Shown here piece by piece: positions 1-45,695 of a stretch of 45,695 nt of DNA. The notes below the pieces were generated by a model, which saw nothing but the letters and a program-made list of their open reading frames with translations, was not told where the DNA came from and did no database searches. Source of the DNA: a phage. Position 1 is the stretch's first letter. Every line of letters begins with the position of its first letter. The translations under genes and the position numbers were made by a program. Where the stretch lies: NCBI GenBank assembly GCA_032325415.1, contig GCA_032325415.1_4119.2. The stretch is one strand, 5' to 3'.

Positions 1-150
1 AGCATGGGTTAACAATTTAATCCCCCTGGCAATGACTCAATACGAATTTAATATGTGTACAAAGATTGTTTTAACTACTAATGATATCTCTAATACGTAC
101 TACTTCCTATTAAGAGTACTATATGGTACTTTGAAATAATAAGGTATACT

Positions 151-357
151 ATGCAGAACATAAAAAACTATAAAGAGTACTATATAAGTAAACTACCACC
201 GACTGACCAAGCATGGATTAGATCTATAATAGTACTGGCATTTAATAGATATGCATTTAACAGATGTACCGAGATTGCTATAGACCCTTATAATATTAAA
301 GAGAATGTACAGCATAATCAGTACTACTATATGTTAATGCTTATATATAGGAAGTAA
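151..357 (+). CDS. hypothetical small protein (68 aa)
   Basis: ORF from track; weak SD-like AAGG upstream; no canonical promoter cassette; lies in ORF-poor structured region. Confidence 0.3.
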   Translation: MQNIKNYKEYYISKLPPTDQAWIRSIIVLAFNRYAFNRCTEIAIDPYNIKENVQHNQYYYMLMLIYRK

Positions 358-796
358 TTCAACATATAGACAGGGGAAGCTCCGCAGGGAAAGCATTGGA
401 CAGGCTTTAACATATGTTATATATGTTAAAATTCAGCCTGGACAAATGCGATCACTAGGATTCTCCCCAGGCTAAACCCCGTAATCATATGTAGTCATAA
501 GTAATCATATATAAACATTTATATGAGCACCGTAGAATCACAGAATGATTATATATGATTCAGTACTGATTAGTATAGACAAGATTGCTCAAGAATGCTA
601 GGGAAGGATTCAGTACTGCCCCAAAAGTATTCAGTACTGAAGGTGTCGATATGCCACTAAGTAGGCAGAGGAAGTCTGCCGTACTTTGTAGTTTCCAAGC
701 TCCTTTTCCATTTTGCAAATTACATCAAATGTAATCAAAAGTAATCACGCAATGATTAGTACTGAATTATTACTTTCACCTTAATTTCAATTACCC

Positions 797-816
797 TTTT
801 ACCCTTCGGGGTAAAA
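797..816. other. stable hairpin TTTTACCC-UUCG-GGGTAAAA, flanked by direct repeats TTCAATTACCC
   Basis: 8-bp stem with UUCG tetraloop; A/T runs on both sides (possible bidirectional terminator or structural element). Confidence 0.5.
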
Positions 817-1024
817 TTCAATTACCCCTTGAGGCTCCAGCAAAAAGTTGGTTAGTACTCCATCCTAAATCTCGATCCTAAAAATTTTGGAGTACCTATG
901 AAATAAAAGTTGGATCTTCGAAAGTTGAAATTTACGTTGGGACGTTTATGATTTGTGGGATATAATGATGTTTGTAGTCGGGTAGTTCTCAAGAATATCA
1001 GTACTGAAAGATGAAAGAAAGTTA

Positions 1025-1052
1025 TTGACTTTATGATTCAGTACTGTATAAT
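1025..1052 (+). promoter_or_regulatory. sigma70-like promoter with CAGTACTG in spacer; no ORF downstream (possible ncRNA)
   Basis: -35 TTGACT 1025-1030, 16-bp spacer, -10 TATAAT 1047-1052; downstream has hairpins CTGTC-GTGA-GACAG and CCACCAGC-ACAA-GCTGGTGG but only a 20-codon ORF. Confidence 0.45.
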
Positions 1053-1382
1053 GTTCTACATAGAGAGATGAGTTGCTGCGAACAATTCATTTACTCTACC
1101 TCCTGTCGTGAGACAGTACAGAAAAGATAGTTCCTCCTGTGGTGGTACATCTTTTTGAACCTCATATGAAAATCGTAATAACAGTACTGATATTAACAGA
1201 ATGGTATCAGTACTGATTTTAATCTAAAGCATTATGCCACCAGCACAAGCTGGTGGATTCCCTCTAACAGTATTCAGTACTACATGATGGTCTTCATCCT
1301 CCTAGGGTAACATAGTGAGGGCTATGATGGCAGTACTGAATACTCCCTTTCAAAAGATAGATCTATGGTATAGTACTGACGG

Positions 1383-1556
1383 ATTTTGGGCGTAGTTACC
1401 CTGGATGGATTTTGGACGTAGATATGTCTAGCCCTCCAGAAGTCTGGAAGTAAAGATGGCTATCCATCTAGACGGCTAAACGGCTAGATTTCTGGATGGC
1501 TGGATGGCTAGACGTTTGGACGGCTAAACGTCTGGATGTATGGATGGCTAAATCAA
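1383..1556. repeat. iteron-like cluster of short direct repeats (TGGATGGCT, GACGGCTAAACG, ATTTTGGGCGTAG)
   Basis: Repeated units seen directly: GACGGCTAAACG x2, TGGATGGCT x3-4, ATTTTGG(G/A)CGTAG x2; non-coding. Confidence 0.6.
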
Positions 1557-2170
1557 AATTTTTATTTTGTTTTTTCCAATAGTTCCCCTACCGCGTGGGG
1601 ATAGTTTCCCCGCAGTATCTGGTGTTAGATTTTTCTGAATCTGGAATCATTATCTTATAAACTGGGGGCAATGTCAACGGCCTGGACGGATATTTTTAAA
1701 AATTTTTTCAGTACTGAATTTTGGGCGTAACTATGCACCCGGTGGGCTTGAGTCTTTCTCGACTTGATGGAACTATTATACAGTACTGAAAAAATAAAGC
1801 AATACCCTGGAAGCAAAAAAGTTTTAATTAATTTGCTTGCTATCCTGGGCCGGACTATGGTACTATGTTTCAGTACTGAGAAAGTGCGTTTACCTGCTAG
1901 GGTGCGGGAGTGTATCCTTTTTTTATATCTTGAATTTTGGGCGTAATTCCGCACCCTCTGGGGTTTCCGCTTTCTCGCGTCTATGTAGTAATTATACGCT
2001 TTTTCAGGATCAAGTCAATACCTAAAAACAAAATAATTGAAAATAATTTAACGCGTTTAAACGGCCTGTAAAGCCCTGGAATGATTGGAATGGTGCAAAT
2101 GTATAGCTTATGTGTATTAATGCGTTAGAATGCGTCTGAGGCCGTTTTACGGGGTATAGGGATGATTTAG

Positions 2171-2268
2171 TGGATTGATTCAGTACTGAATAATAGTACT
2201 ACTATATAGAAAGATAGTTCCCCTGGATTGATTCAGTACTGAATAATAGTACTCCTATATAGAAAGAA
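2171..2268. repeat. tandem direct repeat, 2 copies of about 44 bp separated by about 10 bp
   Basis: TGGATTGATTCAGTACTGAATAATAGTACT(A/C)CTATATAGAAAGA at 2171-2214 and 2225-2268, one mismatch. Confidence 0.8.
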
Positions 2269-2298
2269 AACTATTTTAAAAGTATTTGTAGAAAGTAC

Positions 2299-2326
2299 TT
2301 GCACCGTACTGATAAAAGCGTATAAT
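2299..2326 (+). promoter_or_regulatory. sigma70-like promoter (cassette type)
   Basis: -35 TTGCAC, 16-bp spacer, -10 TATAAT 2321-2326; followed by GTTTTACATC and hairpin GCGGGA-ACACT-TCCCGC. Confidence 0.65.
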
Positions 2327-2381
2327 GTTTTACATCGAGAGCGGGAACACTTCCCGCTACACATTAAGAGAGATTAAAACG

Positions 2382-2744
2382 ATGGCGACTCAAATCAATA
2401 AAATCATGCTTAACCTGGTAAACTTCCGCGATGAGATGAAAGGTCTTCCGGCTGAAACGGTAAAAATTCACATTGCAGCTTATCGGGAACTTATTGCAAT
2501 GTTGCCGCTTAAGCGTGAACAATACGCCGCTACTTTGATGCTGGATTCAATGATCCATATAATGATCTCAAATGATTTGACGATGGTTTATCAGTATATG
2601 GGCGAAAATTTCGCGGTGTGTAGTAAGCCAGTACCAGGGATGGCAACAACTGAGGAATTGCACGGCTTAAACTTAAAACAAGATGCATGGGATAATATGC
2701 CTCGTTTCCTGGTATGGGCTGACAGTGGCAAAATTTACAAATAA
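2382..2744 (+). CDS. hypothetical protein (120 aa)
   Basis: ATG 2382 after promoter, 5' hairpin and SD; track ORF 2325 start lies inside the -10 element and is rejected. Confidence 0.65.
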   Translation: MATQINKIMLNLVNFRDEMKGLPAETVKIHIAAYRELIAMLPLKREQYAATLMLDSMIHIMISNDLTMVYQYMGENFAVCSKPVPGMATTEELHGLNLKQDAWDNMPRFLVWADSGKIYK

Positions 2745-2758
2745 GTTTAATAAAGTAC

Positions 2759-2786
2759 TTGCAAACTATGTTTAAAAGCGTATAAT
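2759..2786 (+). promoter_or_regulatory. sigma70-like promoter (cassette type)
   Basis: -35 TTGCAA 2759-2764, 16-bp spacer, -10 TATAAT 2781-2786; hairpin GGGGAA-TAG-TTCCCC 2800-2815. Confidence 0.65.
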
Positions 2787-2837
2787 GTTTTACATCAGGT
2801 GGGGAATAGTTCCCCACTATATAAGAGGATTAAAAAA

Positions 2838-3077
2838 ATGGCTAAATCAAAAATGTTCTTAGGTCACAAAAACAAAACTCATTGGAATGTAAGCCTTTGG
2901 ATTAATAACGATGAGGGATTGTATCGGTTGGCCCAGGACTTTATTAACGATAGCACTAATCGCAATGATGCGGCCCGTCATATGATGTTATTTTTAGAAC
3001 AGACTGGACAAGATAAAACACCGGACGGATTCAAATATAGCACTACTGCGATCCGTGCGGCGATGGTTGGAATGTAA
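2838..3077 (+). CDS. hypothetical protein (79 aa), paralog of 4875..5114
   Basis: SD AAGAGGA then ATG 2838; shares GHKNKTHWNVSLW...TPDGFKYSTTAIRAAMVGM with 4875..5114. Confidence 0.7.
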   Translation: MAKSKMFLGHKNKTHWNVSLWINNDEGLYRLAQDFINDSTNRNDAARHMMLFLEQTGQDKTPDGFKYSTTAIRAAMVGM

Positions 3078-3089
3078 TAGAATTTATTT

Positions 3090-3125
3090 AAAGTACTATC
3101 ATTTTTTGCGATAGTACTTTATAAT
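3090..3125 (+). promoter_or_regulatory. inverted repeat AAAGTACTATC-N9-GATAGTACTTT overlapping a -10 TATAAT (operator-type or terminator/promoter)
   Basis: Perfect 11-bp IR 3090-3100 / 3110-3120; TATAAT 3120-3125; -35 degenerate. Confidence 0.45.
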
Positions 3126-3162
3126 AGTGTTTTATTCATACACCAACGATAAGGGCAACAGC

Positions 3163-3429
3163 ATGAATATTAAGTATTTTGCGACGCGTGAACAAGCTCG
3201 GATCGCCGCACGCCAGGACGGGGCAACGTTTAAAGATATGGGAGCGGGATCGGCAAGTGGTGAACGTTGGGCCATTGTAAAGCGTAGTACGGCCAGATCA
3301 TTACAGTACTGGTTAGCGGCCTTAAAAAGTCCCGATAGTGTATCGCGTCGAGTGGTAGAAATAAAGCTCGACCGAAAGGGCAACCGCGTGACCGTGTACC
3401 GTACTAAAAAGATTGCAGTACTTGAATAA
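3163..3429 (+). CDS. hypothetical protein (88 aa), paralog of 15901..16296
   Basis: ATG 3163 downstream of TATAAT; shares KYFATREQARIAARQDGATFKDMG and DRKGNRVTVYRTKK with 15901..16296. Confidence 0.65.
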   Translation: MNIKYFATREQARIAARQDGATFKDMGAGSASGERWAIVKRSTARSLQYWLAALKSPDSVSRRVVEIKLDRKGNRVTVYRTKKIAVLE

Positions 3430-3436
3430 AAAGTAC

Positions 3437-3464
3437 TTGCAAACTATGTTTAAAGGCGTATAAT
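3437..3464 (+). promoter_or_regulatory. sigma70-like promoter (cassette type)
   Basis: -35 TTGCAA, 16-bp spacer, -10 TATAAT 3459-3464; hairpin GCGGGAA-CTC-TTCCCGC. Confidence 0.65.
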
Positions 3465-3516
3465 GTTTTACATCGAGAGCGGGAACTCTTCCCGCCTATA
3501 ACCTGGAGTAATAAAA

Positions 3517-3747
3517 ATGACTAATATGTATATGACTGAAGTTAAAACCGTAAAAGATACTACCACGAATAAAACTACTTACTTACAGCGGATCTGTGGT
3601 GTATGGCAACGTATCAGCAAATCAAAGTACTTTAAATTAACATCATATGCAAATCGTTCGGATTCATTCAGTACTGAAATAAAAGGTAATAAAGTACACC
3701 AATACGGCACTTATTATTATTACAGCCTGGACGCGATTGTAGTATAA
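3517..3747 (+). CDS. hypothetical protein (76 aa)
   Basis: SD GGAGT then ATG 3517; track ORF. Confidence 0.65.
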   Translation: MTNMYMTEVKTVKDTTTNKTTYLQRICGVWQRISKSKYFKLTSYANRSDSFSTEIKGNKVHQYGTYYYYSLDAIVV

Positions 3748-3777
3748 GAAGTTTACAAATCTTTACAATTGCCGGTA

Positions 3778-3806
3778 TTGACTTATTTTGTCAGTACTGG
3801 CATAAT
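3778..3806 (+). promoter_or_regulatory. sigma70-like promoter with no ORF downstream
   Basis: -35 TTGACT 3778-3783, 17-bp spacer, -10 CATAAT 3801-3806. Confidence 0.5.
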
Positions 3807-3960
3807 GTATTCATTGGCAGATAAGCCGTAGCCCATAGGGTGCGGGAGTGTATCTATAGCAAAATTAGTTTAGTATAGTTACAATTGTGCACCCGGTGGG
3901 TTAGCTGTTGTCATGGGGTATATTATGCCAGTACTTGATAATGCTGTCAATACTTTTTTA
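3807..3960 (+). other. candidate structured non-coding transcript carrying GCCCATAGGGTGC and its inverted partner GCACCCGGTGGG
   Basis: No ORF; the two motif copies are about 50 nt apart in opposite orientation and could pair; ends in T-run near 3950. Confidence 0.3.
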
Positions 3961-3989
3961 CTATTCAGTACTGAAAACTATTTTTAAAA

Positions 3990-4172
3990 AGTACTTGCAA
4001 ACTATGTTTAAAGGCGTATAATGTTTTACATCAGGACGGGGAACGAAATAAGTAACTCCCCGTTAAGTAGCCCAGGAGTAAGGCACACGAAAAACTCCCC
4101 TGATAAAATAGTTTGACAAATGTTTTTAAAAGCGTATAATACTTACATCAACTACTGAATGAGGGTTACAAA
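3990..4172 (+). repeat. dual-promoter leader module, copy 1 (near-identical to 14936-15117)
   Basis: Promoter A (-35 TTGCAA 3995-4000, -10 TATAAT 4017-4022), hairpin ACGGGGA...TCCCCGT, conserved AAGTAGCCCAGGAGTAAGGCACACGAAAAACTCCCCTGATAAAATAG, promoter B (-35 TTGACA 4113-4118, -10 TATAAT 4135-4140). Confidence 0.7.
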
Positions 4173-4784
4173 ATGAAAACTATCACTACTACTACTTATG
4201 TTATGGCTTTTTCTGAATTGAACGCAGAACAACAAACGTCAGCTATCGAACTGGTTCGGGAACGTGAAAAAAACTCAAACGACAATTATTTTTCTGAAAG
4301 TGAAATTGAATACTATAAAGAAACAGTACTACCGGAATATGGCATTAATGACGCTGAAATACAATTCAGTGGTTTTTGGTCCCAGGGTGACGGTGCATCA
4401 ATCAGTACTGACAGCGTGGACGCAGTGAAGTTTTTACGCAAGATTAAAGCGTTAACGAAATATCGTTCTATCCGTCACTTGTTGAATGAAGATGATTTGG
4501 CAATGAGTGTAGAACGTTCACACTCTCGCTACGCACACGAAAACACGGTAAGCGGGTACATTGAATCGGCTTACACTGATTTAACCGCAAAACAAGAAAC
4601 GTTAGTTAATGAGCTTGAGGAACTACTCACTGAAACTATTCGTGAATTGTCCCGCAAGTTGTACCGTGATTTAGAGAATGCATATGAGGATCAATTCACT
4701 ACTGAAAACATTACGGCACTGATTGAGGGTAACGAGTATCAATTCAATGTTATTGATGGCGTAGTAGAATCAATCGAATATTAA
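4173..4784 (+). CDS. hypothetical acidic protein (203 aa)
   Basis: SD GAGGG then ATG 4173; track ORF; contains FSGFWSQGDGASI motif; function not recognised with confidence. Confidence 0.7.
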   Translation: MKTITTTTYVMAFSELNAEQQTSAIELVREREKNSNDNYFSESEIEYYKETVLPEYGINDAEIQFSGFWSQGDGASISTDSVDAVKFLRKIKALTKYRSIRHLLNEDDLAMSVERSHSRYAHENTVSGYIESAYTDLTAKQETLVNELEELLTETIRELSRKLYRDLENAYEDQFTTENITALIEGNEYQFNVIDGVVESIEY

Positions 4785-4796
4785 TTTAAAAAGTAC

Positions 4797-4824
4797 TTGC
4801 AAACTAAGTTTAAAAGCGTATAAT
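4797..4824 (+). promoter_or_regulatory. sigma70-like promoter (cassette type)
   Basis: -35 TTGCAA, 16-bp spacer, -10 TATAAT 4819-4824; hairpin GCGGGGA-GTGGT-TCCCCGC. Confidence 0.65.
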
Positions 4825-4874
4825 ACTTTATATCGAGGCGGGGAGTGGTTCCCCGCTCAAACGAGGATTTAAAA

Positions 4875-5114
4875 ATGGCTAGTACTAAAACTTACAACGG
4901 TCACAAAAACAAAACTCATTGGAATGTAAGCCTTTGGGTTAATAACGGTGAGTCATTGTATCGGCTTGCTCAAAGTTGCATCGCACAAAGTAGAACTAAA
5001 GATATTGCTGCGGAATGTATGTACCGCAGATTAAAAGCCAACGGTACTACTACAACGCCGGACGGCTTTAAGTATAGCACTACTGCGATCCGTGCTGCAA
5101 TGGTTGGAATGTAA
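4875..5114 (+). CDS. hypothetical protein (79 aa), paralog of 2838..3077
   Basis: SD ACGAGGA then ATG 4875; paralogy with 2838..3077. Confidence 0.7.
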   Translation: MASTKTYNGHKNKTHWNVSLWVNNGESLYRLAQSCIAQSRTKDIAAECMYRRLKANGTTTTPDGFKYSTTAIRAAMVGM

Positions 5115-5133
5115 TATTCAGTACTGAGATAAT
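5104..5133 (+). promoter_or_regulatory. putative promoter with CAGTACTG in spacer and downstream hairpin
   Basis: -35 TTGGAA 5104-5109, 18-bp spacer, -10 GATAAT 5128-5133; hairpin GGCGGG-N8-CCCGCC 5134-5153. Confidence 0.45.
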
Positions 5134-5171
5134 GGCGGGTAATAGTTCCCGCCTTTACTGAGGGTTATCTA

Positions 5172-5432
5172 ATGAGTAAAGTAATTGCCTATACAGTACT
5201 AAGTAAATCATTATCTATCAGTCATTGCACCGATGGTTATTGGCTATTTGATGAAACGCGTGGCATGAATTTAGCTATGCGTGCAAAAACTGCTGAGGCG
5301 GCGTATATTCAAGCACTGGAATACTACCAGGAACGTTTAAAGGAAGTAGAAGAAGATTATAAAAGCCTCAAAGCGAAAGTAGATCATTTCGTCGGTCAAT
5401 TCATCGAGGAAGACGACGACAAACAATATTGA
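5172..5432 (+). CDS. hypothetical protein (86 aa)
   Basis: SD GAGGG then ATG 5172; track ORF. Confidence 0.65.
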   Translation: MSKVIAYTVLSKSLSISHCTDGYWLFDETRGMNLAMRAKTAEAAYIQALEYYQERLKEVEEDYKSLKAKVDHFVGQFIEEDDDKQY

Positions 5433-5440
5433 AAAAGTAC

Positions 5441-5468
5441 TTGCAATTAGTTTTCAGTACTGTATAAT
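5441..5468 (+). promoter_or_regulatory. sigma70-like promoter
   Basis: -35 TTGCAA 5441-5446, 16-bp spacer containing CAGTACTG, -10 TATAAT 5463-5468. Confidence 0.6.
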
Positions 5469-5506
5469 ACTTTATATCGAGTTAACACTATCCAGGAGCT
5501 TTAATC

Positions 5507-5689
5507 ATGACAACATTATCTGAGGTTATCCGCGAGCAAGCTGCGAAAGCTGGAATGACTGTTATTGATGTAGGGATCGAGGTCGAGATCTCCCCTAACG
5601 AATTGCAAGGCATACCCATGCCTACTAGCTGGGATCGTGCGGGGCGTATGATGCGTGATCACTGGACACTAAGCAATAAAGGCGTATAA
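5507..5689 (+). CDS. hypothetical protein (60 aa)
   Basis: SD CCAGGAG then ATG 5507; stop TAA 5687-5689 lies inside the next -10 hexamer. Confidence 0.6.
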   Translation: MTTLSEVIREQAAKAGMTVIDVGIEVEISPNELQGIPMPTSWDRAGRMMRDHWTLSNKGV

Positions 5690-5690
5690 T
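5663..5690 (+). promoter_or_regulatory. sigma70-like promoter embedded in 3' end of upstream gene
   Basis: -35 TGGACA 5663-5668, 16-bp spacer, -10 TATAAT 5685-5690; leader is a duplicate of the 5469-5506 leader. Confidence 0.55.
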
Positions 5691-5728
5691 ACTTTATATC
5701 GAGTTAACACTATCCAGGAGTAACGGCA

Positions 5729-5917
5729 ATGTTTAATATTTTAATCGTTAATGAACAAGGTAACGAGATTGAAACAATTCAATCCCCAATTAATCCGATT
5801 GGTGCTCATAGTCTGGTAACAGAAAAAGCGGTTTATGATTGTATAGAGTTTTCTGCGTCCTTTAAAAATAATCAGATTGTTGTGCACGTTGAAAATGATT
5901 TTATGGAATTTAATTAA
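5729..5917 (+). CDS. hypothetical protein (62 aa)
   Basis: SD CCAGGAGT then ATG 5729; track ORF. Confidence 0.6.
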   Translation: MFNILIVNEQGNEIETIQSPINPIGAHSLVTEKAVYDCIEFSASFKNNQIVVHVENDFMEFN

Positions 5918-5923
5918 AAGTAC

Positions 5924-5951
5924 TTGCAATTAGTTTTCAGTACTGTATAAT
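5924..5951 (+). promoter_or_regulatory. sigma70-like promoter (cassette type)
   Basis: -35 TTGCAA 5924-5929, 16-bp spacer, -10 TATAAT 5946-5951; hairpin AGGGAGAA-ATGG-TTCTCCCT. Confidence 0.65.
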
Positions 5952-6001
5952 GGTTTACATCAAAGGGAGAAATGGTTCTCCCTGGTAATGAGGAAAATAC
6001 A

Positions 6002-6223
6002 ATGGCTAATATCACTACTCTTTCCCAACTGGAAGCACTGGTTAAATCTATGCGGGAACATGCTGACAAAATCGGCGTACAAGATCCAGCCGTTTGCTTC
6101 TGCGACGAATTGAATGATGATACCCTGGTAATAGCAGAAGTCCAGGACGTTTCTAACTATTCCTCGCGTTACACTGGCGGCGTAGCAAATAAAGGCGACT
6201 TCTGTTTATACCTTACAAAATAA
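6002..6223 (+). CDS. hypothetical protein (73 aa)
   Basis: SD GAGGAAA then ATG 6002, in frame with track ORF 5972 whose start lies in the leader hairpin. Confidence 0.65.
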   Translation: MANITTLSQLEALVKSMREHADKIGVQDPAVCFCDELNDDTLVIAEVQDVSNYSSRYTGGVANKGDFCLYLTK

Positions 6224-6228
6224 CAACG

Positions 6229-6258
6229 CGGGGAGATAATAACTCCCCGTTACTTTTT
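6229..6258 (+). terminator. rho-independent terminator
   Basis: CGGGGAG-ATAATAA-CTCCCCG followed by TTACTTTTT. Confidence 0.7.
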
Positions 6259-6391
6259 CAGTACTGAATCATTTAATAGACGGATCTCGGCACCCGGTGG
6301 GTTAGTGACTGTTTCGTCTTGATGTAGTAATTATGCCAGTACTGGATGCACTTGTCAACAATTATTTTTCAAATACTTTTTATTAAAATAC

Positions 6392-6419
6392 TTGCAATTA
6401 GTTTTTAAACGCGTATAAT
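6392..6419 (+). promoter_or_regulatory. sigma70-like promoter (cassette type)
   Basis: -35 TTGCAA 6392-6397, 16-bp spacer, -10 TATAAT 6414-6419; hairpin GGGGA-GCGGT-TCCCC. Confidence 0.65.
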
Positions 6420-6466
6420 GTTTTGCATAGGGGGAGCGGTTCCCCTGGTAACTAAGGAATAAGAAA

Positions 6467-6703
6467 ATGGTCGAACAAATCAAATCAACGTCTGCGAATG
6501 TAACGGGAACGGTATCCCACTTTACTAGTGATGAATCGCGTGGTGTTCCTTATTGTGCTGTACATGTAAACACTGATGGCAACTACTGGTTTACGGTTTA
6601 CGGATCATATTCATTTGGTCGGCCAGGACATCAAAAAATCCTGGATAAAGTACAACCAACGGGTAAAAATATCACTGCCGAAATGTTTTATAAAAAATCA
6701 TAA
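6467..6703 (+). CDS. hypothetical protein (78 aa)
   Basis: SD TAAGGAAT then ATG 6467; track ORF. Confidence 0.65.
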   Translation: MVEQIKSTSANVTGTVSHFTSDESRGVPYCAVHVNTDGNYWFTVYGSYSFGRPGHQKILDKVQPTGKNITAEMFYKKS

Positions 6704-6708
6704 AGTAC

Positions 6709-6736
6709 TTGATAATAGTTTTTAGTACTGTATAAT
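6709..6736 (+). promoter_or_regulatory. sigma70-like promoter (cassette type)
   Basis: -35 TTGATA 6709-6714, 16-bp spacer, -10 TATAAT 6731-6736; hairpin GGGGGAGCGGTTCCCCC. Confidence 0.6.
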
Positions 6737-6787
6737 ATTTTACATCGCAAGGGGGAGCGGTTCCCCCTGGTAACTAAGGATAATCAA

Positions 6788-7087
6788 ATGAAAATTGCAA
6801 TCATCGCCCTGGCTTTATCTGTTTCCTCTTTCGCTGTTAATGCGTCGTTAGATGTAAGTAGTGAAAAATTCATTCAGTGCACTGTTGCAATGACCGATGA
6901 AAGTACTGGCGAGATTGTATTAAAGGATTTAGAGATCCAGCCGGAAGCATTTAAAAACGGCCCGTTCCATGAAGAAGACGAAAAAGGTAGCACGACAATT
7001 TATTACGATGCAAGTACTAAACGCGGTTCGGTCACTGTAATGGATACGGAGAAAGTAACTCATACTGGCGTTATTAATTGCCGTTGA
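6788..7087 (+). CDS. predicted secreted/periplasmic protein (99 aa) with N-terminal signal peptide
   Basis: N-terminus MKIAIIALALSVSSFAVNA has a basic residue, hydrophobic core and AxA-like cleavage context; SD TAAGGAT. Confidence 0.65.
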   Translation: MKIAIIALALSVSSFAVNASLDVSSEKFIQCTVAMTDESTGEIVLKDLEIQPEAFKNGPFHEEDEKGSTTIYYDASTKRGSVTVMDTEKVTHTGVINCR

Positions 7088-7108
7088 TAGATACTACGGG
7101 GTAACATC

Positions 7109-7339
7109 ATGACTAAGCGAATTGTTTTACTTAACGAAAGCAGTACTACACAACTACTTAACGCCGTACATTATGATATTGAAACGAGTGTTAATCTTAT
7201 CAGTACTGTAGTACTATTGGACACTGGAAAGGTCGCCAATGAAAAAGCTATTGCAGGTGTACTAACTGATCTTGAGCCTGGTAGCAGTACACCCATAACG
7301 TTAAATGATAAAGTGTTTAATGTTTTAATTACTGAATAA
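7109..7339 (+). CDS. hypothetical protein (76 aa)
   Basis: Track ORF 22 nt after previous stop; likely co-transcribed; followed by terminator. Confidence 0.55.
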   Translation: MTKRIVLLNESSTTQLLNAVHYDIETSVNLISTVVLLDTGKVANEKAIAGVLTDLEPGSSTPITLNDKVFNVLITE

Positions 7340-7345
7340 GTACAT

Positions 7346-7368
7346 AGCCCACCTGGTGGGCTTTTTTG
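7346..7368 (+). terminator. rho-independent terminator
   Basis: AGCCCACC-TGGT-GGGCT hairpin followed by TTTTTTGTTTTTG. Confidence 0.75.
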
Positions 7369-7421
7369 TTTTTGTAGTATCGTAGTACTGAGATACTTTG
7401 AAAATAGTTTTAAGAAAGTAG

Positions 7422-7449
7422 TTGACATTACCGCAGAAAAGCGTAGAAT
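7422..7449 (+). promoter_or_regulatory. sigma70-like promoter; leader is a diverged variant of the dual-promoter module
   Basis: -35 TTGACA 7422-7427, 16-bp spacer, -10 TAGAAT 7444-7449; hairpin ACGGGGAG...; second putative promoter TTGATA 7523-7528 / TAAACT. Confidence 0.55.
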
Positions 7450-7572
7450 GTATTACATCAAGACGGGGAGCACTAAGTAGACCGCCAGTAAGTCGAACGA
7501 AAAACTGGACACGTCGAGAAAACTTTGATACACTAATAAACGTAAACTAAACTTTAATTGAGGATTTATAAA

Positions 7573-8055
7573 ATGGCTAATGTAAAATCATTCATCAAAG
7601 CACTGGTAGCAAATGAAACTAACGTCGCGGCTGAGATCCTGGCTGAACTGGATAACGATACCATGAAAGCGGTACGCAATAATTTTAACATCGCTTACAG
7701 TACTGCGAAAGAACTACAAGCAAATAAAGCGGCAGAAATTGAAGCGGCAAAGGCGGCCCGTGAAGCAGAACTACAAGCAACAATCGAAAGTATTCAGGCG
7801 GCAGTAGTTGGATTGGATCTGGAAGTAGTTACAGAGATGGCACAAAAAGCCCTGGCGGTTAAGTATGGGGAAGACAAGCCAGAAGTAAAAGCCAAAAAAT
7901 GGATTCAGGAACGCGTAGCGGTAGTACTGGACAACGGGGAAGAATATCTGATTCCGGTGCGTGGTAACTGCATTGCGGTAGTACTGGACGCGATTAACGC
8001 CAGCGGTATGACTCGCGAGGAATGGATCGAATCTCATCGCAAAGTTGAAGCATAA
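7573..8055 (+). CDS. hypothetical Ala/Glu-rich protein (160 aa)
   Basis: SD TGAGGAT then ATG 7573, in frame with track ORF 7558. Confidence 0.65.
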   Translation: MANVKSFIKALVANETNVAAEILAELDNDTMKAVRNNFNIAYSTAKELQANKAAEIEAAKAAREAELQATIESIQAAVVGLDLEVVTEMAQKALAVKYGEDKPEVKAKKWIQERVAVVLDNGEEYLIPVRGNCIAVVLDAINASGMTREEWIESHRKVEA

Positions 8056-8076
8056 CAATTAAAGTACTGAATCACT

Positions 8077-8104
8077 AGCCCACCTTAAACGGTGGGCTTT
8101 TTTG
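8077..8104 (+). terminator. rho-independent terminator
   Basis: GCCCACC-TTAAAC-GGTGGGC followed by TTTTTTGTG. Confidence 0.8.
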
Positions 8105-8257
8105 TGTTTATCGTTTACCAGGCCACCAGCACCGCCTAGAAACGATTCTAACGCATTAAACTGATTATCTGATGCATTGCCCTAGCTGGTGGCGTTAAGG
8201 CTGTAAGAACGCGATTGAGAGCGTTTAAAGTATTTTGCAAAAAGTAATAAAAAGTAC

Positions 8258-8285
8258 TTGCACGATTAAGAGATTAGCGTATAAT
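8258..8285 (+). promoter_or_regulatory. sigma70-like promoter (cassette type)
   Basis: -35 TTGCAC 8258-8263, 16-bp spacer, -10 TATAAT 8280-8285; GTTTTACATC then GC hairpin. Confidence 0.65.
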
Positions 8286-8340
8286 GTTTTACATCGAGAG
8301 GGGGAAACGGTTCTCCTTCCAAATCAAAGGAATCAAAACA

Positions 8341-8568
8341 ATGGCTATTATCATTACTCGCGTATCTGGTACTACTGGCAACGAACAAGTAGTTGCAGTC
8401 ATTACCAATAAGGAAGGTGCGGAATTGCAAAATGCAATGAATACCTGGGCCGTTAATGAGTTCGGTCAGTGGGCTAGTGTAGCATACATTGAAACCTATC
8501 AAGTGCCGTCGATTAGTTTAACTGATTTGGGCGTTGAGCGTATCCTTTGCCTGGATGAATTAAATTAA
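8341..8568 (+). CDS. hypothetical protein (75 aa)
   Basis: SD AAAGGAAT then ATG 8341; track ORF 8284 start lies inside the promoter. Confidence 0.65.
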   Translation: MAIIITRVSGTTGNEQVVAVITNKEGAELQNAMNTWAVNEFGQWASVAYIETYQVPSISLTDLGVERILCLDELN

Positions 8569-8576
8569 AAAAGTAC

Positions 8577-8604
8577 TTGCAAAGTAAATCGAATAAAGTA
8601 TAAT
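8577..8604 (+). promoter_or_regulatory. sigma70-like promoter (cassette type)
   Basis: -35 TTGCAA 8577-8582, 16-bp spacer, -10 TATAAT 8599-8604; hairpin GGGGAGAA-ATGG-TTCTCCCC. Confidence 0.65.
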
Positions 8605-8653
8605 ACATTACATCAAGGGGAGAAATGGTTCTCCCCACTACAAGGAAACTAAA

Positions 8654-8797
8654 ATGAAAACTTGTCAATGTGGTCAGAAATCTATTACGGGTTTAAAGCG
8701 GGGCGTTGCTCTTTGCCAGTACCATTATAATTTACAAGTATGGGGTAAAGAATGGGCCGATCAAGTGGAAGCAATCAAGAAAGCAAAAAGTAAGTAA
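8654..8797 (+). CDS. small Cys-rich protein (47 aa), not in ORF track
   Basis: Complete cassette (promoter, hairpin, SD AAGGAAA, ATG 8654) with ORF MKTCQCGQKSITGLKRGVALCQYHYNLQVWGKEWADQVEAIKKAKSK; possible metal-binding CxC...C..H. Confidence 0.55.
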   Translation: MKTCQCGQKSITGLKRGVALCQYHYNLQVWGKEWADQVEAIKKAKSK

Positions 8798-8809
8798 AAA
8801 TATTATCAC

Positions 8810-8845
8810 AGTACTATTGACATAGTTTGATAGTACTGGCATAAT
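8810..8845 (+). promoter_or_regulatory. promoter with operator-like inverted repeat AGTACTAT-N12-ATAGTACT
   Basis: AGTACTAT 8810-8817, -35 TTGACA 8817-8822, ATAGTACT 8830-8837, -10 CATAAT 8840-8845. Confidence 0.6.
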
Positions 8846-8878
8846 AGATTTTATCAAGACAACTAAGAGGAAATTAAA

Positions 8879-9223
8879 ATGGCTAACATCAACACTATCG
8901 CAGCACAAAATATCAACCTGTCTTCTGTTGAAGTTGTACATATTGCCGCTCGGCGTTGGTTCCAGGCTTCATATGGTAACACTTATTTCTCTTTAAGTGT
9001 AGACGTAGAAATTGATGGTAATTTTATTGAAGTAGTAAACGTGCCGTTCCAATATGGATACGGGGATCACTTTGACACTGTAGCAATGGAAGAATTTAGC
9101 AAGGTTATTAATATGGAAGATAAAGAGTTTTTACGCGGTTCTTATCTTTCCCGTTTTTGCCGTGACAATAATATCACTGTTTACAGTTCGGTAACTGATG
9201 TTAAACGCAAAAAAGATCTTTAA
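8879..9223 (+). CDS. hypothetical protein (114 aa), distant paralog of 15482..15805
   Basis: SD TAAGAGG then ATG 8879; shares RW..GNTY and C-terminal DVKRKKD with 15482..15805. Confidence 0.65.
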   Translation: MANINTIAAQNINLSSVEVVHIAARRWFQASYGNTYFSLSVDVEIDGNFIEVVNVPFQYGYGDHFDTVAMEEFSKVINMEDKEFLRGSYLSRFCRDNNITVYSSVTDVKRKKDL

Positions 9224-9303
9224 TTAGCTTTACTTTATGCAGATACTTTGATATAGTGTCTGCATAGGGGAAAGAAATTAAATTAACTTAAGAGGATAGT
9301 ATA

Positions 9304-9573
9304 ATGAAAAATATCAGTACTTTAATCGATGCAGGTACTCATGTTCGTCGGTCTATGGTTGCAACCAGTACTACAAAACAAGTAGCGAGCGGTTATCTTG
9401 TATTTGTGCACGATGGAAAACTCCTGGAACGTTCAATCAATTTTGATGTTAAAAACAATTGCCGTTTTATTATCTTTAAGCGTGAGCAATATAAAATTGA
9501 TTTGCCAGCGAAGCCCATTAGCGGGGCGTATAACGTCTATTCATTGTTTGAGCGTCAACCATACACCTATTAA
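9304..9573 (+). CDS. hypothetical protein (89 aa)
   Basis: SD TAAGAGGA then ATG 9304; preceded by hairpin ATGCAGA-N-TCTGCAT 9236-9266. Confidence 0.6.
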   Translation: MKNISTLIDAGTHVRRSMVATSTTKQVASGYLVFVHDGKLLERSINFDVKNNCRFIIFKREQYKIDLPAKPISGAYNVYSLFERQPYTY

Positions 9574-36102: not shown

Positions 36103-36111
36103 AGACGTTTC

Positions 36112-36299: not shown

Positions 36300-36677
36300 A
36301 TGGAAATAAAATATAATGAATTTTGTGCAAGGACATGGATGTACACTGGTGAGTTAGTTACGCACTCTAACTTATACAAGGGTGATTTAAACTACGCTAG
36401 GGACAAGATTTTAAAGTACTGGAATGCTGACTTTTATTTGATGGATTTTAGTACTGGGTTTAGGGGTAAAGCAACCGAGATGTTGGACTATACAGTACTT
36501 GATGATGCTGCACTGTTTCAGGAGGCATTAGTATTTGATAAGAAGTACATCTGTACATTAGAAGAGATGATTGAAATCCAGCGTAGAATTAAATGTATTC
36601 ACAGAGAATGTATAGACATCTGGTGCAGTACTGGTGAAGATGATTTTTGTAATCATTTCAATCTAGGGGAAGAGTGA
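36300..36677 (+). CDS. family-B paralog, B1 subgroup (125 aa; track start 36192)
   Basis: ATG 36300; LDDAALFQEALVFDKKYICTLEEMIEIQ; upstream part of the track ORF crosses the inverted-repeat region. Confidence 0.55.
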   Translation: MEIKYNEFCARTWMYTGELVTHSNLYKGDLNYARDKILKYWNADFYLMDFSTGFRGKATEMLDYTVLDDAALFQEALVFDKKYICTLEEMIEIQRRIKCIHRECIDIWCSTGEDDFCNHFNLGEE

Positions 36678-43723: not shown

Positions 43724-44048
43724 ATTAGTGAAAGTAATGTACGCTACTCATATTAAACTACTACTTGTGAAATTTGATTATAATAAAAAACATAATGATT
43801 TCTATACTTTAATTCGTGATGAAAATACATTCTCCTTGCGATGCAACAATATACCGTTGAAGATAAATGATTTTACTTCACTTGACGAGGGTGAATTATT
43901 TCAAGAATCATTAGTTTTTAATAGTAATATAAAAATTGATATAGAAGTTATTAAAAAATACCAGATTTTATTGAACAAAATTATGAATTGTTATCCATGT
44001 GAAATAGGTGGTCATATGCAGTTCAAATCAAAAATGTATGAATTATGA
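43713..44048 (+). CDS. family-B paralog, B1-like (111 aa)
   Basis: LDEGELFQESLVFNSNIKIDIEVIKK. Confidence 0.6.
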   Translation: MKTELVKVMYATHIKLLLVKFDYNKKHNDFYTLIRDENTFSLRCNNIPLKINDFTSLDEGELFQESLVFNSNIKIDIEVIKKYQILLNKIMNCYPCEIGGHMQFKSKMYEL

Positions 44049-44055
44049 GGTTTAT

Positions 44056-44592
44056 ATGTTAGATAAAAAAATGAACTCTGGAACCCAATATAATCATCTT
44101 AAGTTGGATACATTCGAATCAGCTATCAGTACAGCACAAGATATAATTGATATTATCAAGTTCATTAAAGAAGATAAGTTCAAATGTTTGAAAATACTAA
44201 ATCGTTCAATGTACCGTGATAAAAATATTCATGTATCAGTACGTAGACCGAAAGAACAAGAAAGTGGGAGAGATTTCTATAACAACAGTGAGCAGTTCGA
44301 ATGTGAATATGATCCAGAATTTAGAGGTGGTTTCATGTGTTACTGTATGAAGGATACCTCACACATTGAGATACGTTCATCGAAAGGTGGCATACGTACA
44401 TTAGAGTTTATTGATATAGTTTTAAATCAGGAATACTACTTTCAACTATCATTATTGTTTCCTGCATACGATTTAGGAGTTCTATTCATGTATAAGTACT
44501 TTCATGAGCACTGGAATGAAGACTTCTATCTGGACTTAGAAGATTACCACTTAGTTTGGAAAGAAATGGTAAAACTTCGCAACCCATCTTGA
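44056..44592 (+). CDS. family-B paralog, B2-like (178 aa; track start 44008)
   Basis: SD GAGG then ATG 44056; FESAISTAQDIIDIIKFI ... NQEYYFQLSLLFPAYDLGVLFMYKYF. Confidence 0.6.
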   Translation: MLDKKMNSGTQYNHLKLDTFESAISTAQDIIDIIKFIKEDKFKCLKILNRSMYRDKNIHVSVRRPKEQESGRDFYNNSEQFECEYDPEFRGGFMCYCMKDTSHIEIRSSKGGIRTLEFIDIVLNQEYYFQLSLLFPAYDLGVLFMYKYFHEHWNEDFYLDLEDYHLVWKEMVKLRNPS

Positions 44593-44618
44593 CACCCTCC
44601 GATTCTTTGTGATATAAT
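44589..44618 (+). promoter_or_regulatory. internal sigma70-like promoter within array
   Basis: -35 TTGACA 44589-44594 overlapping the upstream stop, 18-bp spacer, -10 TATAAT 44613-44618. Confidence 0.5.
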
Positions 44619-44651
44619 CTCTTTATATTAATTGTAAAGGGTTATATCACA

Positions 44652-45128
44652 ATGTCCAAAGACCTATCATTTAGCAATGCACAAAAAATAGCAAAAGACA
44701 TTATCAGGGTTTATAAATTCCTTACAAATGTTACTGAAGATTTTTCCGTGGGCAAACATACAGTCAAAAAAAGAAATGGATACCTTTCCTTTATGGATGG
44801 GTTACTCTATAGTTCAGATGAATCAACTTGTAGTATTAGAGTGCTTGATGAAGTACCAAGTGGTGATTTTATTTCATACCATTTCCCAAGTTCAGATAAT
44901 TTCAAATACTACAATCATCATCTTATAAATGAAGGATTTGATACGGCTGAAATTAACACTGAAGAAGAGTTCTTCCAGTACAGTACTGTGTATCCAGAGA
45001 GGATTGTTTTCAGTTCAGTGATTTACACTGCCCTTAAAAATGAACTAAATTCAGATAGTGATCATTTCTACTTGGACCTGAACAATCTCGATTGTATTAT
45101 TGAGTACCTGGAGAAAAATGGTTTATGA
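44652..45128 (+). CDS. family-B paralog, B2-like (158 aa)
   Basis: SD AAAGGG then ATG 44652; FSNAQKIAKDIIRVYKFL ... NTEEEFFQYSTVYPERIVFSSV ... FYLDLNNL. Confidence 0.65.
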   Translation: MSKDLSFSNAQKIAKDIIRVYKFLTNVTEDFSVGKHTVKKRNGYLSFMDGLLYSSDESTCSIRVLDEVPSGDFISYHFPSSDNFKYYNHHLINEGFDTAEINTEEEFFQYSTVYPERIVFSSVIYTALKNELNSDSDHFYLDLNNLDCIIEYLEKNGL

Positions 45129-45619
45129 TTACTACAGAATATGATTACGATGGTGTTTTAGAATTTGCAGAAAATATCTATCGCATTGCAAAGGAGTTCA
45201 GAAGTCCTGACCCATTTGGTGGTATGTTCGAATACGATGAGTTTAGTTCATCCAAAGGAAGACTTGCGTTTACTAATGAAAGAGGTAATCAAATCTATGC
45301 CGAGTACTTTGATGACAATGACTTTCATTACAAAGCCGGATACATTTCATATTGCCCTGGGTCTGATTTGAAGATTAATATTGACAATTATAGAGAAGCA
45401 GTATTTGTTAAGTATGATGATTTAGTGCTCATGTCAGAGGAAATGTACTTTCAGGGTTCTTGTATTCATGATGTAAAAGTACTTAATGCTATGTTATTTT
45501 ATGGTGCACTACTTCATCATTACAAATACAAACAACGATTCTTTTTAGATTTAGTAGTATACTATAAATGCGTGGATTATTTGAATGCAAAATACGACAA
45601 CAATTCAGTACATGACTGA
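45125..45619 (+). CDS. family-B paralog (164 aa)
   Basis: ATGA overlap; LMSEEMYFQGSCIHDVKVLNAMLFYG ... FFLDLVVY. Confidence 0.65.
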   Translation: MITTEYDYDGVLEFAENIYRIAKEFRSPDPFGGMFEYDEFSSSKGRLAFTNERGNQIYAEYFDDNDFHYKAGYISYCPGSDLKINIDNYREAVFVKYDDLVLMSEEMYFQGSCIHDVKVLNAMLFYGALLHHYKYKQRFFLDLVVYYKCVDYLNAKYDNNSVHD

Positions 45620-45695
45620 TGGTACTGAATACTTTGTTTCAAGATATGTAATCAACCACAACCATTATGTGACCTATATTCCAGAATACAATCAA

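What the first reader, a model, noticed from the sequence alone, without database searches (positions are those of the whole stretch)
1..45695. AGTACT and the palindrome CAGTACTG are strongly over-represented and built into promoters
AGTACT occurs far more often than the roughly 10-15 copies expected by chance in 45.7 kb; by eye there are well over 60, about 20 of them in the first 2.3 kb. It is embedded in promoter upstream regions (AAAGTACTTGCA), in spacers (CAGTACTGTATAAT), and in six promoters as an inverted repeat AGTACTAT-N12-21-ATAGTACT bracketing the -35 (3090, 8810, 11662, 11923, 15820, 19169). It also continues in the AT-rich arrays. This looks like a binding motif for a dimeric regulator or nucleoid/packaging protein, or a target for site-specific DNA modification or nicking.
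Basis: seen in the sequence. Interest (0 to 1): 0.7.

Follow-up and report, generated by a model that had tools for sequence, protein, structure and literature searches.

The report
Hyper-abundant AGTACT word in jumbo phage

Summary
The window is the left end of a Rak2/121Q-like (Asteriusvirus) jumbo coliphage: genome terminus near 660, ~20-kb terminal repeat to 21,006, then accessory genes.

The motif is not mainly a promoter element. 60% of window sites, and 83% genome-wide in a 350-kb relative, lie inside genes in all three frames. AGTACT is the top hexamer of that genome (913 copies). Sites are conserved 2-7 times better than background. Ser-Thr and Val-Leu dipeptides are inflated to spell it.

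The enrichment is shared by Salmonella, Klebsiella, Yersinia and CBB-like relatives. It is absent from Pseudomonas phage PA5oct, from 77 more distant relatives and from E. coli. It co-occurs with total absence of GCGC.

In the terminal repeat the motif sits at fixed positions abutting the -35 and -10 of host-type promoters.

New finding: a 7.6-kb domain (28.7-36.4 kb) has no AGTACT but 42 one-sided AGTACA, all on one strand, also under selection.

SlmA, LexA, biased repair and the phage CpG methylase are rejected. Best reading: a recognition word for a clade-specific, probably phage-encoded, DNA-reading protein that marks phage DNA.

The parts
1..45695 (.). 201 copies of AGTACT, of which 51 are CAGTACTG. 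The effective word is HAGTACTD, with C preferred and G excluded at -1.
1..2300 (.). Mostly non-coding head region with the highest density (24 sites, 10.4 per kb; 13 CAGTACTG). It contains repeated modules built around ATTCAGTACTGA and spans the genome's left physical terminus.
542..639 (.). Three GATTCAGTACTG modules (sites at 562, 612, 633) immediately left of the terminal-repeat boundary near 660.
   Evidence: The boundary comes from E9.1 record position 1 and the fEgEco12 DTR start.
660..21006 (+). Direct terminal repeat, the early region: 137 AGTACT (6.7 per kb) and 38 sigma-70-like promoters, 24 of them with AGTACT abutting the -35 (14), in the spacer next to the -10 (17), or both (7).
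   Evidence: DTR confirmed experimentally in fEgEco12 (PMC13070987).
2171..2267 (+). Two 44-nt modules, TGGATTGATTCAGTACTGAATAATAGTACT..., 53 nt apart, each with two sites.
8810..8837 (+). Example of a promoter bracketed by two sites: AGTACTATTGACATAGTTTGATAGTACT. Others start at 3092, 11662, 11923, 15820 and 19169.
21007..25946 (+). Island 1: the start of a 28-member tandem array of 65-90-aa paralogues, directly after the DTR end. It has 0 AGTACT, 10 TGTACT (the mirror one-sided form) and 1 AGTACA.
   Evidence: Several TGTACT lie at homologous paralogue positions, so this evidence is weak.
25947..28713 (+). Interval between the two islands with ordinary palindromic sites (16 AGTACT). AT skew and GC skew shift here.
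28714..36414 (+). Island 2, the AGTACA domain: 42 AGTACA on the + strand in all three frames, with 0 AGTACT, 0 TGTACT and 0 GTACT among 70 GTAC. Boundaries are sharp (last AGTACT at 28,708; next at 36,415).
   Evidence: Same in E9.1, EC22, 121Q and the divergent-allele phage vB_Ec-M-J.
36415..45695 (+). Densely coding accessory region with 41 AGTACT (4.4 per kb), all intragenic, frames 17/11/13.

Best explanation
AGTACT is a clade-specific DNA recognition word kept by selection. I infer that it is read on double-stranded DNA by a dedicated, most probably phage-encoded, two-fold symmetric protein. Each subunit would read one AGT half-site, with C favoured and G excluded at the next base out.

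Shown: the word is carried about 900 times per genome, at 2.6-4.4 per kb, against about 0.06 per kb in a sample of the host chromosome. It therefore distinguishes phage DNA from host DNA.

Shown: it is densest in the ~20-kb terminal repeat. There it overlaps the upstream edge of the -35 and fills the spacer next to the -10 of host-type early promoters.

Shown: in one 7.6-kb domain the word is replaced by the one-sided form AGTACA, always in one orientation.

For: Over-representation: 13-fold in the window and 7.7-fold across a 350-kb relative, where it is the rank-1 hexamer in nearly every 5-kb bin and on both coding orientations.

Selection acts on DNA, not on protein or promoter. Sites occur in all three frames. 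There are 120 intragenic copies, against 41 +/- 5 when proteins and codon usage are kept and 16 +/- 4 when only codon usage is kept. Ser-Thr is spelled AGT-ACT 376 times against 110 expected. Ser-Thr (707 against 487 expected; Thr-Ser 481) and Val-Leu (755 against 519 Leu-Val) are inflated.

Purifying selection: site mismatch rates are 0.5-1.8% against 2.7-4.0% background in four relatives, p = 0.0002-0.002. Three tail-sheath sites sit at identical codons in three genera at 73% aa identity, with gains and losses elsewhere.

One reader: the same C(-1)/G(+1) preference is seen in coding and non-coding sites, and flank information is close to zero beyond that. So these are not copies of a longer repeat.

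Fixed promoter positions.

Clade specificity. Munch, RaK2, fHe-Yen9-04, a CBB-size contig and two other contigs are enriched 6-7-fold. PA5oct has 1 against 8.4 expected. 77 loci with 52% sheath identity or less have at most 0.6 per kb. An E. coli sample has 3 in 50 kb.

Alternatives weakened: host readers SlmA and LexA are excluded, no biased-repair signature is present, and the C5 methyltransferase is explained by CpG.
Against: No candidate protein was found. The larger early proteins of the window have no recognisable DNA-binding domain except a DksA/TraR zinc finger.

The core is unusually crisp for a transcription-factor site: the exact hexamer is 7.7-fold over expectation, while one-mismatch neighbours are 1.2-2.2-fold. 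That looks more like enzyme recognition.

Outside promoters the spacing shows only a weak 18-22 bp preference.

The strictly oriented AGTACA domain (42:0) is not what a simple symmetric binder predicts. It fits a directional or strand-specific reader better.

The fixed promoter positions could partly reflect duplicated promoter cassettes, or the few places where the word fits between constrained promoter bases.
Confidence: 0.38

Rival explanations
1. Directional or strand-specific enzyme signal. AGTAC on one strand is read by a translocating or strand-specific machine: a Chi/KOPS-like signal for a phage helicase-nuclease, a primase start site, or a nicking site. The palindrome AGTACT is the bidirectional form and AGTACA the unidirectional form.
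For: A domain of 42 AGTACA on one strand with 0 TGTACT and 0 GTACT; P is about 1e-23 given neighbouring proportions. It is conserved and turning over in a divergent allele set without ever becoming AGTACT. The mirror form lies in the block on the other side of 25.9-28.7 kb, where the skews shift. The hexamer is crisp. The density of about 1-4 per kb, the presence in coding sequence and the effects on codon use resemble Chi and uptake sequences. The clade encodes T4-type primase-helicase and RecB-like nucleases (annotation).
Against: The main motif is palindromic, so it shows no orientation bias over about 97% of the genome. Fixed positions in promoters are not expected. The evidence for the mirror domain is weak because many TGTACT lie at paralogous positions. 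No cognate enzyme was identified.
Confidence: 0.25
2. Target of a phage DNA methyltransferase (epigenetic self-mark), with the abundance of sites serving that mark.
For: Crisp hexamer recognition, typical of type II enzymes. The clade encodes two methyltransferases. RaK2 DNA is reported to be cut only by methylation-insensitive enzymes.
Against: The C5 enzyme is small and DNMT3/HhaI-like, and RaK2 DNA carries m5CpG by bisulfite. The C of AGTACT is followed by T. The other enzyme belongs to the Dam family PF05869. Methylation alone gives no reason for 8-13-fold enrichment or for an oriented one-sided variant. fEgEco12 DNA is cut as predicted by 10 enzymes.
Confidence: 0.1
3. Binding word for a host factor shared by Enterobacterales, for example titration or recruitment of a host nucleoid protein.
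For: The enrichment is found only in phages of Enterobacterales hosts and not in the Pseudomonas relative. The SlmA site has AGTACT at its centre. Cells infected by the relative Sharanji filament.
Against: SlmA needs G1, T2 and a purine at position 3. There are 0 full sites in 350 kb, and 19 of 1826 half-sites have the GTR flank; G is the rarest base at -1. The LexA arrangement is absent. The host itself has few AGTACT, so a host protein dedicated to this word would have little to bind.
Confidence: 0.07
4. The word acts in RNA (AGUACU or AGUACA in transcripts), for example as a site for an RNA-binding protein or ribonuclease.
For: A palindromic DNA word appears in transcripts of either strand. 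In the AGTACA domain the variant is always on the sense strand.
Against: The flank preference is symmetric, and extended palindromes such as TTCAGTACTGAA occur. Sites sit at fixed positions within promoter cores upstream of start points. Density is high in the non-coding terminal region. Island 1 carries the antisense form.
Confidence: 0.05
5. No function: a by-product of a mutational or biased-repair drive, as proposed for the cyanobacterial HIP1 palindrome, or of repeat or promoter duplication.
For: Highly iterated palindromes exist elsewhere with no agreed function. Some promoter cassettes are clearly duplicated.
Against: No one-step neighbour is depleted; the transition neighbours have O/E of 1.2 and 1.8. 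Enrichment of 8-13-fold is far beyond known repair effects. Flanks carry no extended similarity. Sites are conserved at homologous codons across genera. A genome-wide drive cannot give a sharp domain with a different, oriented word, maintained across 82%-identical alleles.
Confidence: 0.04

Closest known systems
HIP1, the highly iterated palindrome GCGATCGC of cyanobacteria
   Same: A short palindrome that is hyper-abundant throughout a genome, inside and outside genes, and conserved across a clade. Its function is still debated.
   Different: HIP1 is in a cellular genome, is an 8-mer, and embeds a site methylated by a cognate methyltransferase. Here the genome is a lytic phage's, the core is 6 bp, no cognate methyltransferase is evident, and there is a domain with an oriented one-sided variant. 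No phage HIP was found in the literature searched.
Chi, KOPS and DNA uptake sequences (USS/DUS): over-represented genomic identity words
   Same: Density of the order of one per kb, presence in coding sequence with effects on codon and peptide usage, lineage specificity, and a role as a mark of 'own' DNA for a DNA-processing machine.
   Different: Those words are asymmetric and orientation-biased genome-wide. AGTACT is palindromic, and only one 7.6-kb domain shows an oriented form. No cognate machine is known here.
Stoperators of cluster A mycobacteriophages (L5 gp71 repressor sites; from my own knowledge, not checked here)
   Same: One protein's site is used both at promoters as an operator and at many dispersed sites along the genome, with orientation relative to transcription mattering.
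   Different: About 30 asymmetric 13-bp sites, mostly intergenic, in temperate phages. Here there are about 900 mostly intragenic palindromic 6-8-bp sites in a virulent jumbo phage.
SlmA-binding sites (GTGAGTACTCAC) of E. coli
   Same: Identical central hexamer AGTACT, a palindrome, dispersed over a chromosome, found in Enterobacterales.
   Different: The outer bases essential for SlmA (G1, T2, purine at position 3) are absent. There are no full sites in 350 kb.

Membership tests
SlmA-binding site (SBS) | 12-bp palindrome GTRAGY/RCTYAC with a strong requirement for G1, T2, A4 and G5 (PMC3020112) | tested here: not met
   0 full sites in the window and in 350 kb. 19 of 1826 half-sites have the GTR flank. 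The base at -1 is C 46%, G 7-8%.
LexA (SOS) box | CTGT-N8-ACAG arrangement of half-sites | tested here: not met
   0 in the window. 1 (CTGT-N8-ACAG) and 3 (TACTG-N10-CAGTA) in 350 kb.
Sigma-70 promoter element | Occurs at a fixed distance from the -35 and -10 hexamers and essentially only there | tested here: not met
   Fixed offsets exist in 24 of 38 terminal-repeat promoters. But 60% of window sites and 83% of genome-wide sites are intragenic and evenly spread along genes.
Highly iterated palindrome (HIP1-like) | Short palindrome far above expectation across the whole genome, in coding and non-coding DNA, conserved in a clade | tested here: met
   Rank-1 hexamer, 913 against about 119 expected. 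Shared by five or more genera or contigs.
Highly iterated palindrome (HIP1-like) | Motif embeds the target of a cognate DNA methyltransferase | tested here: inconclusive
   Two methyltransferases are present (Dam family; small C5). The C5 enzyme is explained by m5CpG in RaK2. The methylation state of AGTACT is unknown.
Biased-repair (very-short-patch-like) product | Depletion of the one-step neighbour that is converted into the motif | tested here: not met
   All nine neighbour pairs have O/E 0.6-2.2. The transition neighbours AATACT/AGTATT are at 1.23 and AGCACT/AGTGCT at 1.79.
Type II restriction-modification target (ScaI-type AGTACT) | Sharp hexamer specificity plus a cognate methyltransferase or endonuclease in the genome | tested here: inconclusive
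   Sharp core: met. No enzyme could be assigned to AGTACT. No digestion with ScaI, RsaI or TatI was found in the papers read.
Chi/KOPS-type polar signal | Asymmetric word with orientation bias tied to replication or translocation direction | tested here: inconclusive
   The main word is palindromic, so no bias is possible. One domain has 42:0 oriented AGTACA, and a weaker mirror domain exists. The replication origin is unknown.
Chi/KOPS-type polar signal | Recognised by a cognate helicase-nuclease or translocase | not testable with these tools
   Needs biochemistry.
Dispersed repeat / mobile element copies | Copies share extended similarity beyond the core | tested here: not met
   Relative entropy is 0.11 bit or less at positions -2 to -8. 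Only the 1-2.4 kb head has longer modules.

The most novel reading that the evidence does not exclude
Rak2-like jumbo phages carry a sequence-encoded identity system. The half-word AGTAC is a directional signal for a phage DNA machine (a phage-specific Chi/KOPS or priming/nicking signal). It is used as the palindrome AGTACT so that it works in both directions over nearly the whole genome. It is used one-sided (AGTACA or TGTACT) in two domains that diverge from a point near 26-29 kb, next to the terminal repeat, possibly an origin. The same clade has purged every GCGC. That would let a GCGC-directed activity destroy host DNA, which has about 7 GCGC per kb, while sparing the phage.
Probability: 0.12. 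Interest if true: 0.9.

Novelty: new variant of a known kind. Interest (0 to 1): 0.74.

Why it matters
If a dedicated reader of AGTACT exists, this clade of 350-kb phages has no nucleus-like shell and no bulk base replacement. Their DNA is cut normally by ten restriction enzymes. They would then tell their own DNA from the host's by sequence words alone: one word multiplied about 900 times, and another (GCGC) removed completely.

That would be a new route to self/non-self discrimination in phages. It gives a concrete handle, a 6-8-bp oligonucleotide, for fishing out an unknown regulator or enzyme from genomes in which over 80% of genes have no function.

The selection is strong enough to reshape the proteome by hundreds of extra Ser-Thr and Val-Leu dipeptides. 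This is a clear example of a DNA-level signal constraining protein evolution in a virus.

The sharply bounded domain with an oriented one-letter variant is a natural experiment that can separate binding, nicking, priming and transcription models.

In practice, AGTACT density together with absence of GCGC is a simple signature for recognising this clade in metagenomes.

Tried and rejected
(1) Chance or composition: rejected by shuffles and Markov models.

(2) Codon or dipeptide artefact: rejected. Sites occur in all frames, and synonymous and codon-order shuffles give 41 and 16 against 120 observed.

(3) Promoter-only element or hitch-hiking on duplicated promoter cassettes: rejected as the main cause.

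(4) SlmA sites, a lead from memory checked against PMC3020112: rejected on flanks.

(5) LexA boxes: rejected.

(6) Biased-repair origin: no depleted neighbour.

(7) The AGTACA over TGTACT asymmetry as a sign of a general strand-specific motif: outside island 2 the window is symmetric (54 against 57). Genome-wide, the 2:1 bias flips with the coding strand, so it is a coding effect.

(9) Motif-free islands as recently acquired foreign DNA: not supported. They are also free of GCGC (8.6 expected, P = 0.0002). Island 2 keeps its own selected word across divergent alleles.

(10) Pfam and PHROGs on island and early proteins gave no function.

(11) Literature searches for the motif, for iterated palindromes in phages and in the papers on these phages found no prior description.

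(12) A single-protein search of viral contigs for island-2 homologues returned only 121Q.

(13) Technical: loci fetched in parallel were not exported to the script sandbox, so the relative's genome had to be fetched again one piece at a time.

Full report
WHAT THE WINDOW IS

The window matches Rak2/121Q-like jumbo coliphages of the genus Asteriusvirus at 92-99% identity. The closest are E9.1, fEgEco12, phAPEC6 and 121Q. All genes are on the + strand.

fEgEco12 has 20,993-bp direct terminal repeats, confirmed by PhageTerm and restriction digests (PMC13070987). Its right repeat starts at a position that corresponds to window position ~660, which is also where the E9.1 record begins. The sequence at the end of the fEgEco12 repeat maps to window 21,006.

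The window therefore contains, in order:
- the last ~660 bp of unique sequence;
- the whole terminal repeat (660-21,006), packed with small early genes behind strong sigma-70-type promoters;
- about 25 kb of tightly packed accessory genes of unknown function.

THE OBSERVATION

AGTACT occurs 201 times against 12.8 +/- 3.4 in shuffles, and CAGTACTG 51 times against 0.64. AGTACT is the commonest hexamer in the window. A third-order Markov model, itself inflated by the motif, expects 80.

The sixth has an 11-nt spacer.

- 120 of the 201 copies lie inside ORFs, in all three frames (46/28/46).
- Two blocks, 21,007-25,946 and 28,714-36,414, have no copy at all.

IT IS A GENOME-WIDE AND CLADE-WIDE PROPERTY

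In the 350-kb relative EC22.5-2, AGTACT is the rank-1 hexamer, with 913 copies against about 119 expected. It is present in nearly every 5-kb bin and on both coding orientations. Density peaks at 7 per kb in the terminal-repeat region and falls to 1-2 per kb in the structural-gene half. 755 of the 913 copies are intragenic and evenly spread along genes. Non-coding density is twice the coding density.

The same 6-7-fold enrichment is found in:
- core-gene regions of Salmonella phage Munch (100 against 17 expected);
- Klebsiella phage RaK2 (73 against 10);
- Yersinia phage fHe-Yen9-04 (51 against 8);
- three viral contigs with 72-73% tail-sheath identity, one of which has the size of phage CBB.

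It is absent from:
- the distant relative PA5oct, which has similar G+C (1 against 8.4 expected);
- 77 further tail-sheath loci with 52% identity or less (at most 0.6 per kb);
- a 50-kb sample of E. coli K-12 (3 copies).

IT IS MAINTAINED BY SELECTION ON DNA

Codon-aware shuffles. Shuffling synonymous codons within each gene, which keeps the proteins, gives 41 +/- 5 intragenic copies. Shuffling codon order gives 16 +/- 4. The observed number is 120.

Effects on the proteome, measured genome-wide:
- 376 of 707 Ser-Thr dipeptides are spelled AGT-ACT, against 110 expected from codon usage.
- The dipeptide itself is inflated: 707 against 487 expected, with 481 for Thr-Ser.
- Val-Leu is also inflated: 755 against 519 for Leu-Val.

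Conservation. Sites diverge 2-7 times less than background in four relatives, p = 0.0002-0.002. In the tail-sheath gene, three sites are kept at identical codons in three genera that share only 73% amino-acid identity. Other sites have been gained or lost, and PA5oct's ortholog has none.

Mutational origin. No one-step neighbour of AGTACT is depleted, so a very-short-patch-like conversion origin is not supported.

Repeat copies. Beyond the core, only the adjacent base carries information (C 46%, G 7-8%). The preference is the same in coding and non-coding sites. This argues for a single reader and against copies of a longer repeat.

PROMOTERS AND THE TERMINUS

Within the terminal repeat, 24 of 38 promoter-like sites carry the word at one of two fixed positions, or at both: sharing its last T with the -35 hexamer (AGTAC-TTGCAA), and in the spacer directly upstream of the -10 (cAGTACTg-TATAAT). 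A protein bound at those positions would overlap the contacts made by RNA polymerase.

The non-coding 2.3-kb head holds 24 sites, many of them in the extended palindrome TTCAGTACTGAA. It includes three GATTCAGTACTG modules within the 100 bp before the repeat boundary.

THE UNEXPECTED DOMAIN

Island 2 (28,714-36,414) has no AGTACT, yet GTAC is enriched 3-fold there. The explanation is 42 copies of AGTACA:
- All 42 are on the + strand, in all three frames (17/11/12).
- They show the same C(-1)/G(+1) flank preference as AGTACT.
- There are 0 TGTACT, and none of the 70 GTAC in the block is followed by T.
- 17 of 18 Ser-Thr dipeptides are spelled AGT-ACA there. The flanking regions use AGT-ACT.

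Along the sequence the change is abrupt. AGTACT runs up to 28,708. Then come 42 consecutive AGTACA. AGTACT resumes at 36,415. Given neighbouring proportions, P is about 1e-23.

The same pure run exists in E9.1, EC22.5-2 (the only such block in its 350 kb) and 121Q.

It also exists in vB_Ec-M-J, where the block is a divergent allele set at 82% nucleotide identity, with one protein only 54% identical. Between the two allele sets, 24-25 of 39 aligned sites are retained against 31% expected. About 15 per lineage have turned over, and none is AGTACT in the other lineage.

So the one-sided word is itself selected in this domain, and the palindrome is excluded from it.

Island 1 is a 28-member paralogue array that starts right after the repeat. 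It has 0 AGTACT and 10 TGTACT, the mirror form. Several of these lie at homologous positions of paralogues, so this evidence is weaker.

WHO READS IT

Host candidates fail:
- SlmA's site has AGTACT at its centre but needs G1, T2 and a purine at position 3 (PMC3020112). There is no full site in 350 kb, and G is the rarest base at -1.
- The LexA arrangement is absent.

The clade's two methyltransferases are a Dam-family enzyme and a small C5 enzyme whose nearest solved relatives are DNMT3, HhaI and HaeIII. RaK2 DNA carries m5CpG by bisulfite sequencing (PMC3622015). That accounts for the C5 enzyme without involving AGTACT.

No DNA-binding domain was recognised among the larger early proteins of the window. 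None of the papers on these phages mentions the motif. No iterated palindrome has been described for any phage in the library searched.

INTERPRETATION

Shown:
- The word is real, is selected at the DNA level and is specific to the clade.
- It sets phage DNA apart from host DNA by about 40-70-fold in density.
- It sits on core promoter elements in the terminal repeat.
- It has a selected, oriented, one-sided variant confined to one domain.

Inferred:
- It is the recognition site of a clade-specific, probably phage-encoded, two-fold symmetric protein.
- That protein marks or organises phage DNA and modulates early promoters (confidence about 0.4).
- The oriented domain is the main fact this model does not predict. 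It keeps alive a directional or strand-specific reader, such as a Chi-like, priming or nicking signal (about 0.25).
- Methylation, a host factor, an RNA-level role and a neutral drive are less likely.

RELATED OBSERVATION

Every AGTACT-rich phage sampled has no GCGC at all: 0 against 292 expected in 350 kb, and 0 in the window, Munch, RaK2, fHe-Yen9-04 and the three related contigs. PA5oct has the expected number, and E. coli has about 7 per kb. The two traits mark the same clade and both widen the contrast between phage and host DNA.

Noticed in passing
whole window; relatives EC22.5-2 (L011-L022), L023, L024, L025, L029, L030, L038: The tetramer GCGC is completely absent: 0 against 43 expected in the window and 0 against 292 in a 350-kb relative. 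It is also 0 in Munch, RaK2, fHe-Yen9-04 and three related contigs. It is at the expected level in PA5oct (20 against 16) and abundant in E. coli (342 per 50 kb). The trait co-occurs exactly with AGTACT enrichment.
   Followed up: partly
window 660 and 21,006: These are the left physical terminus and the right boundary of the ~20-kb direct terminal repeat, mapped from fEgEco12 and E9.1. The AGTACT-dense, promoter-rich early region coincides with the repeat. All promoters point away from the left end.
   Followed up: yes
window 21,104-27,237: Tandem array of 28 paralogous genes of 52-90 aa (PHROG 4148, unknown function) starting about 100 bp after the terminal-repeat boundary.
   Followed up: partly
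window 28,714-36,414; L110 (vB_Ec-M-J): This block exists as sharply divergent allele sets within Asteriusvirus. One protein is 95% or more identical in 23 phages, about 54% identical in about 10, and about 27% identical in two. The flanking DNA is about 95% identical. It is a hypervariable mosaic module of unknown function.
   Followed up: partly
window 10,791-10,826; 14,816-14,851; 17,538-17,573; 19,501-19,536: Four copies of a 12-bp-stem hairpin, AAAGGGATTGACTCCGGTCAGTCCCTTT, followed by GCTATTATAT. The -35-like TTGACT lies inside the stem of a terminator-like hairpin and a -10-like TATTAT follows it. This looks like a combined terminator-promoter cassette.
   Followed up: no
window 1,406-1,549: Iteron-like array of GGATGGCT/AGACGKYT-type units with spacings in multiples of 8 nt. 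It lies in the non-coding head region near the terminus. GAATTTTGGGCGTAA repeats lie nearby at 1378, 1404, 1713 and 1929.
   Followed up: no
window about 24,000-29,000: Composition shifts between the two islands. AT skew falls from +0.24 to about +0.03. GC skew dips to -0.03 and then rises to +0.15-0.28.
   Followed up: no
window 1-20,000: The megablast search listed 13 Campylobacter phage records, and a few Erwinia and Acinetobacter ones, among weak matches to the early region. What they share was not examined.
   Followed up: no
window 12,787-13,044 and 16,884-17,525: A DksA/TraR-type zinc-finger protein (Pfam E = 2e-11) and a 213-aa protein with a weak, sub-threshold protein-kinase match lie among the early genes.
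   Followed up: no
literature (PMC11895373): E. coli cells infected by the related phage Sharanji become filamentous, and their DNA stain is diffuse, with no phage nucleus. No link to the motif was established, and SlmA sites are absent.
   Followed up: partly
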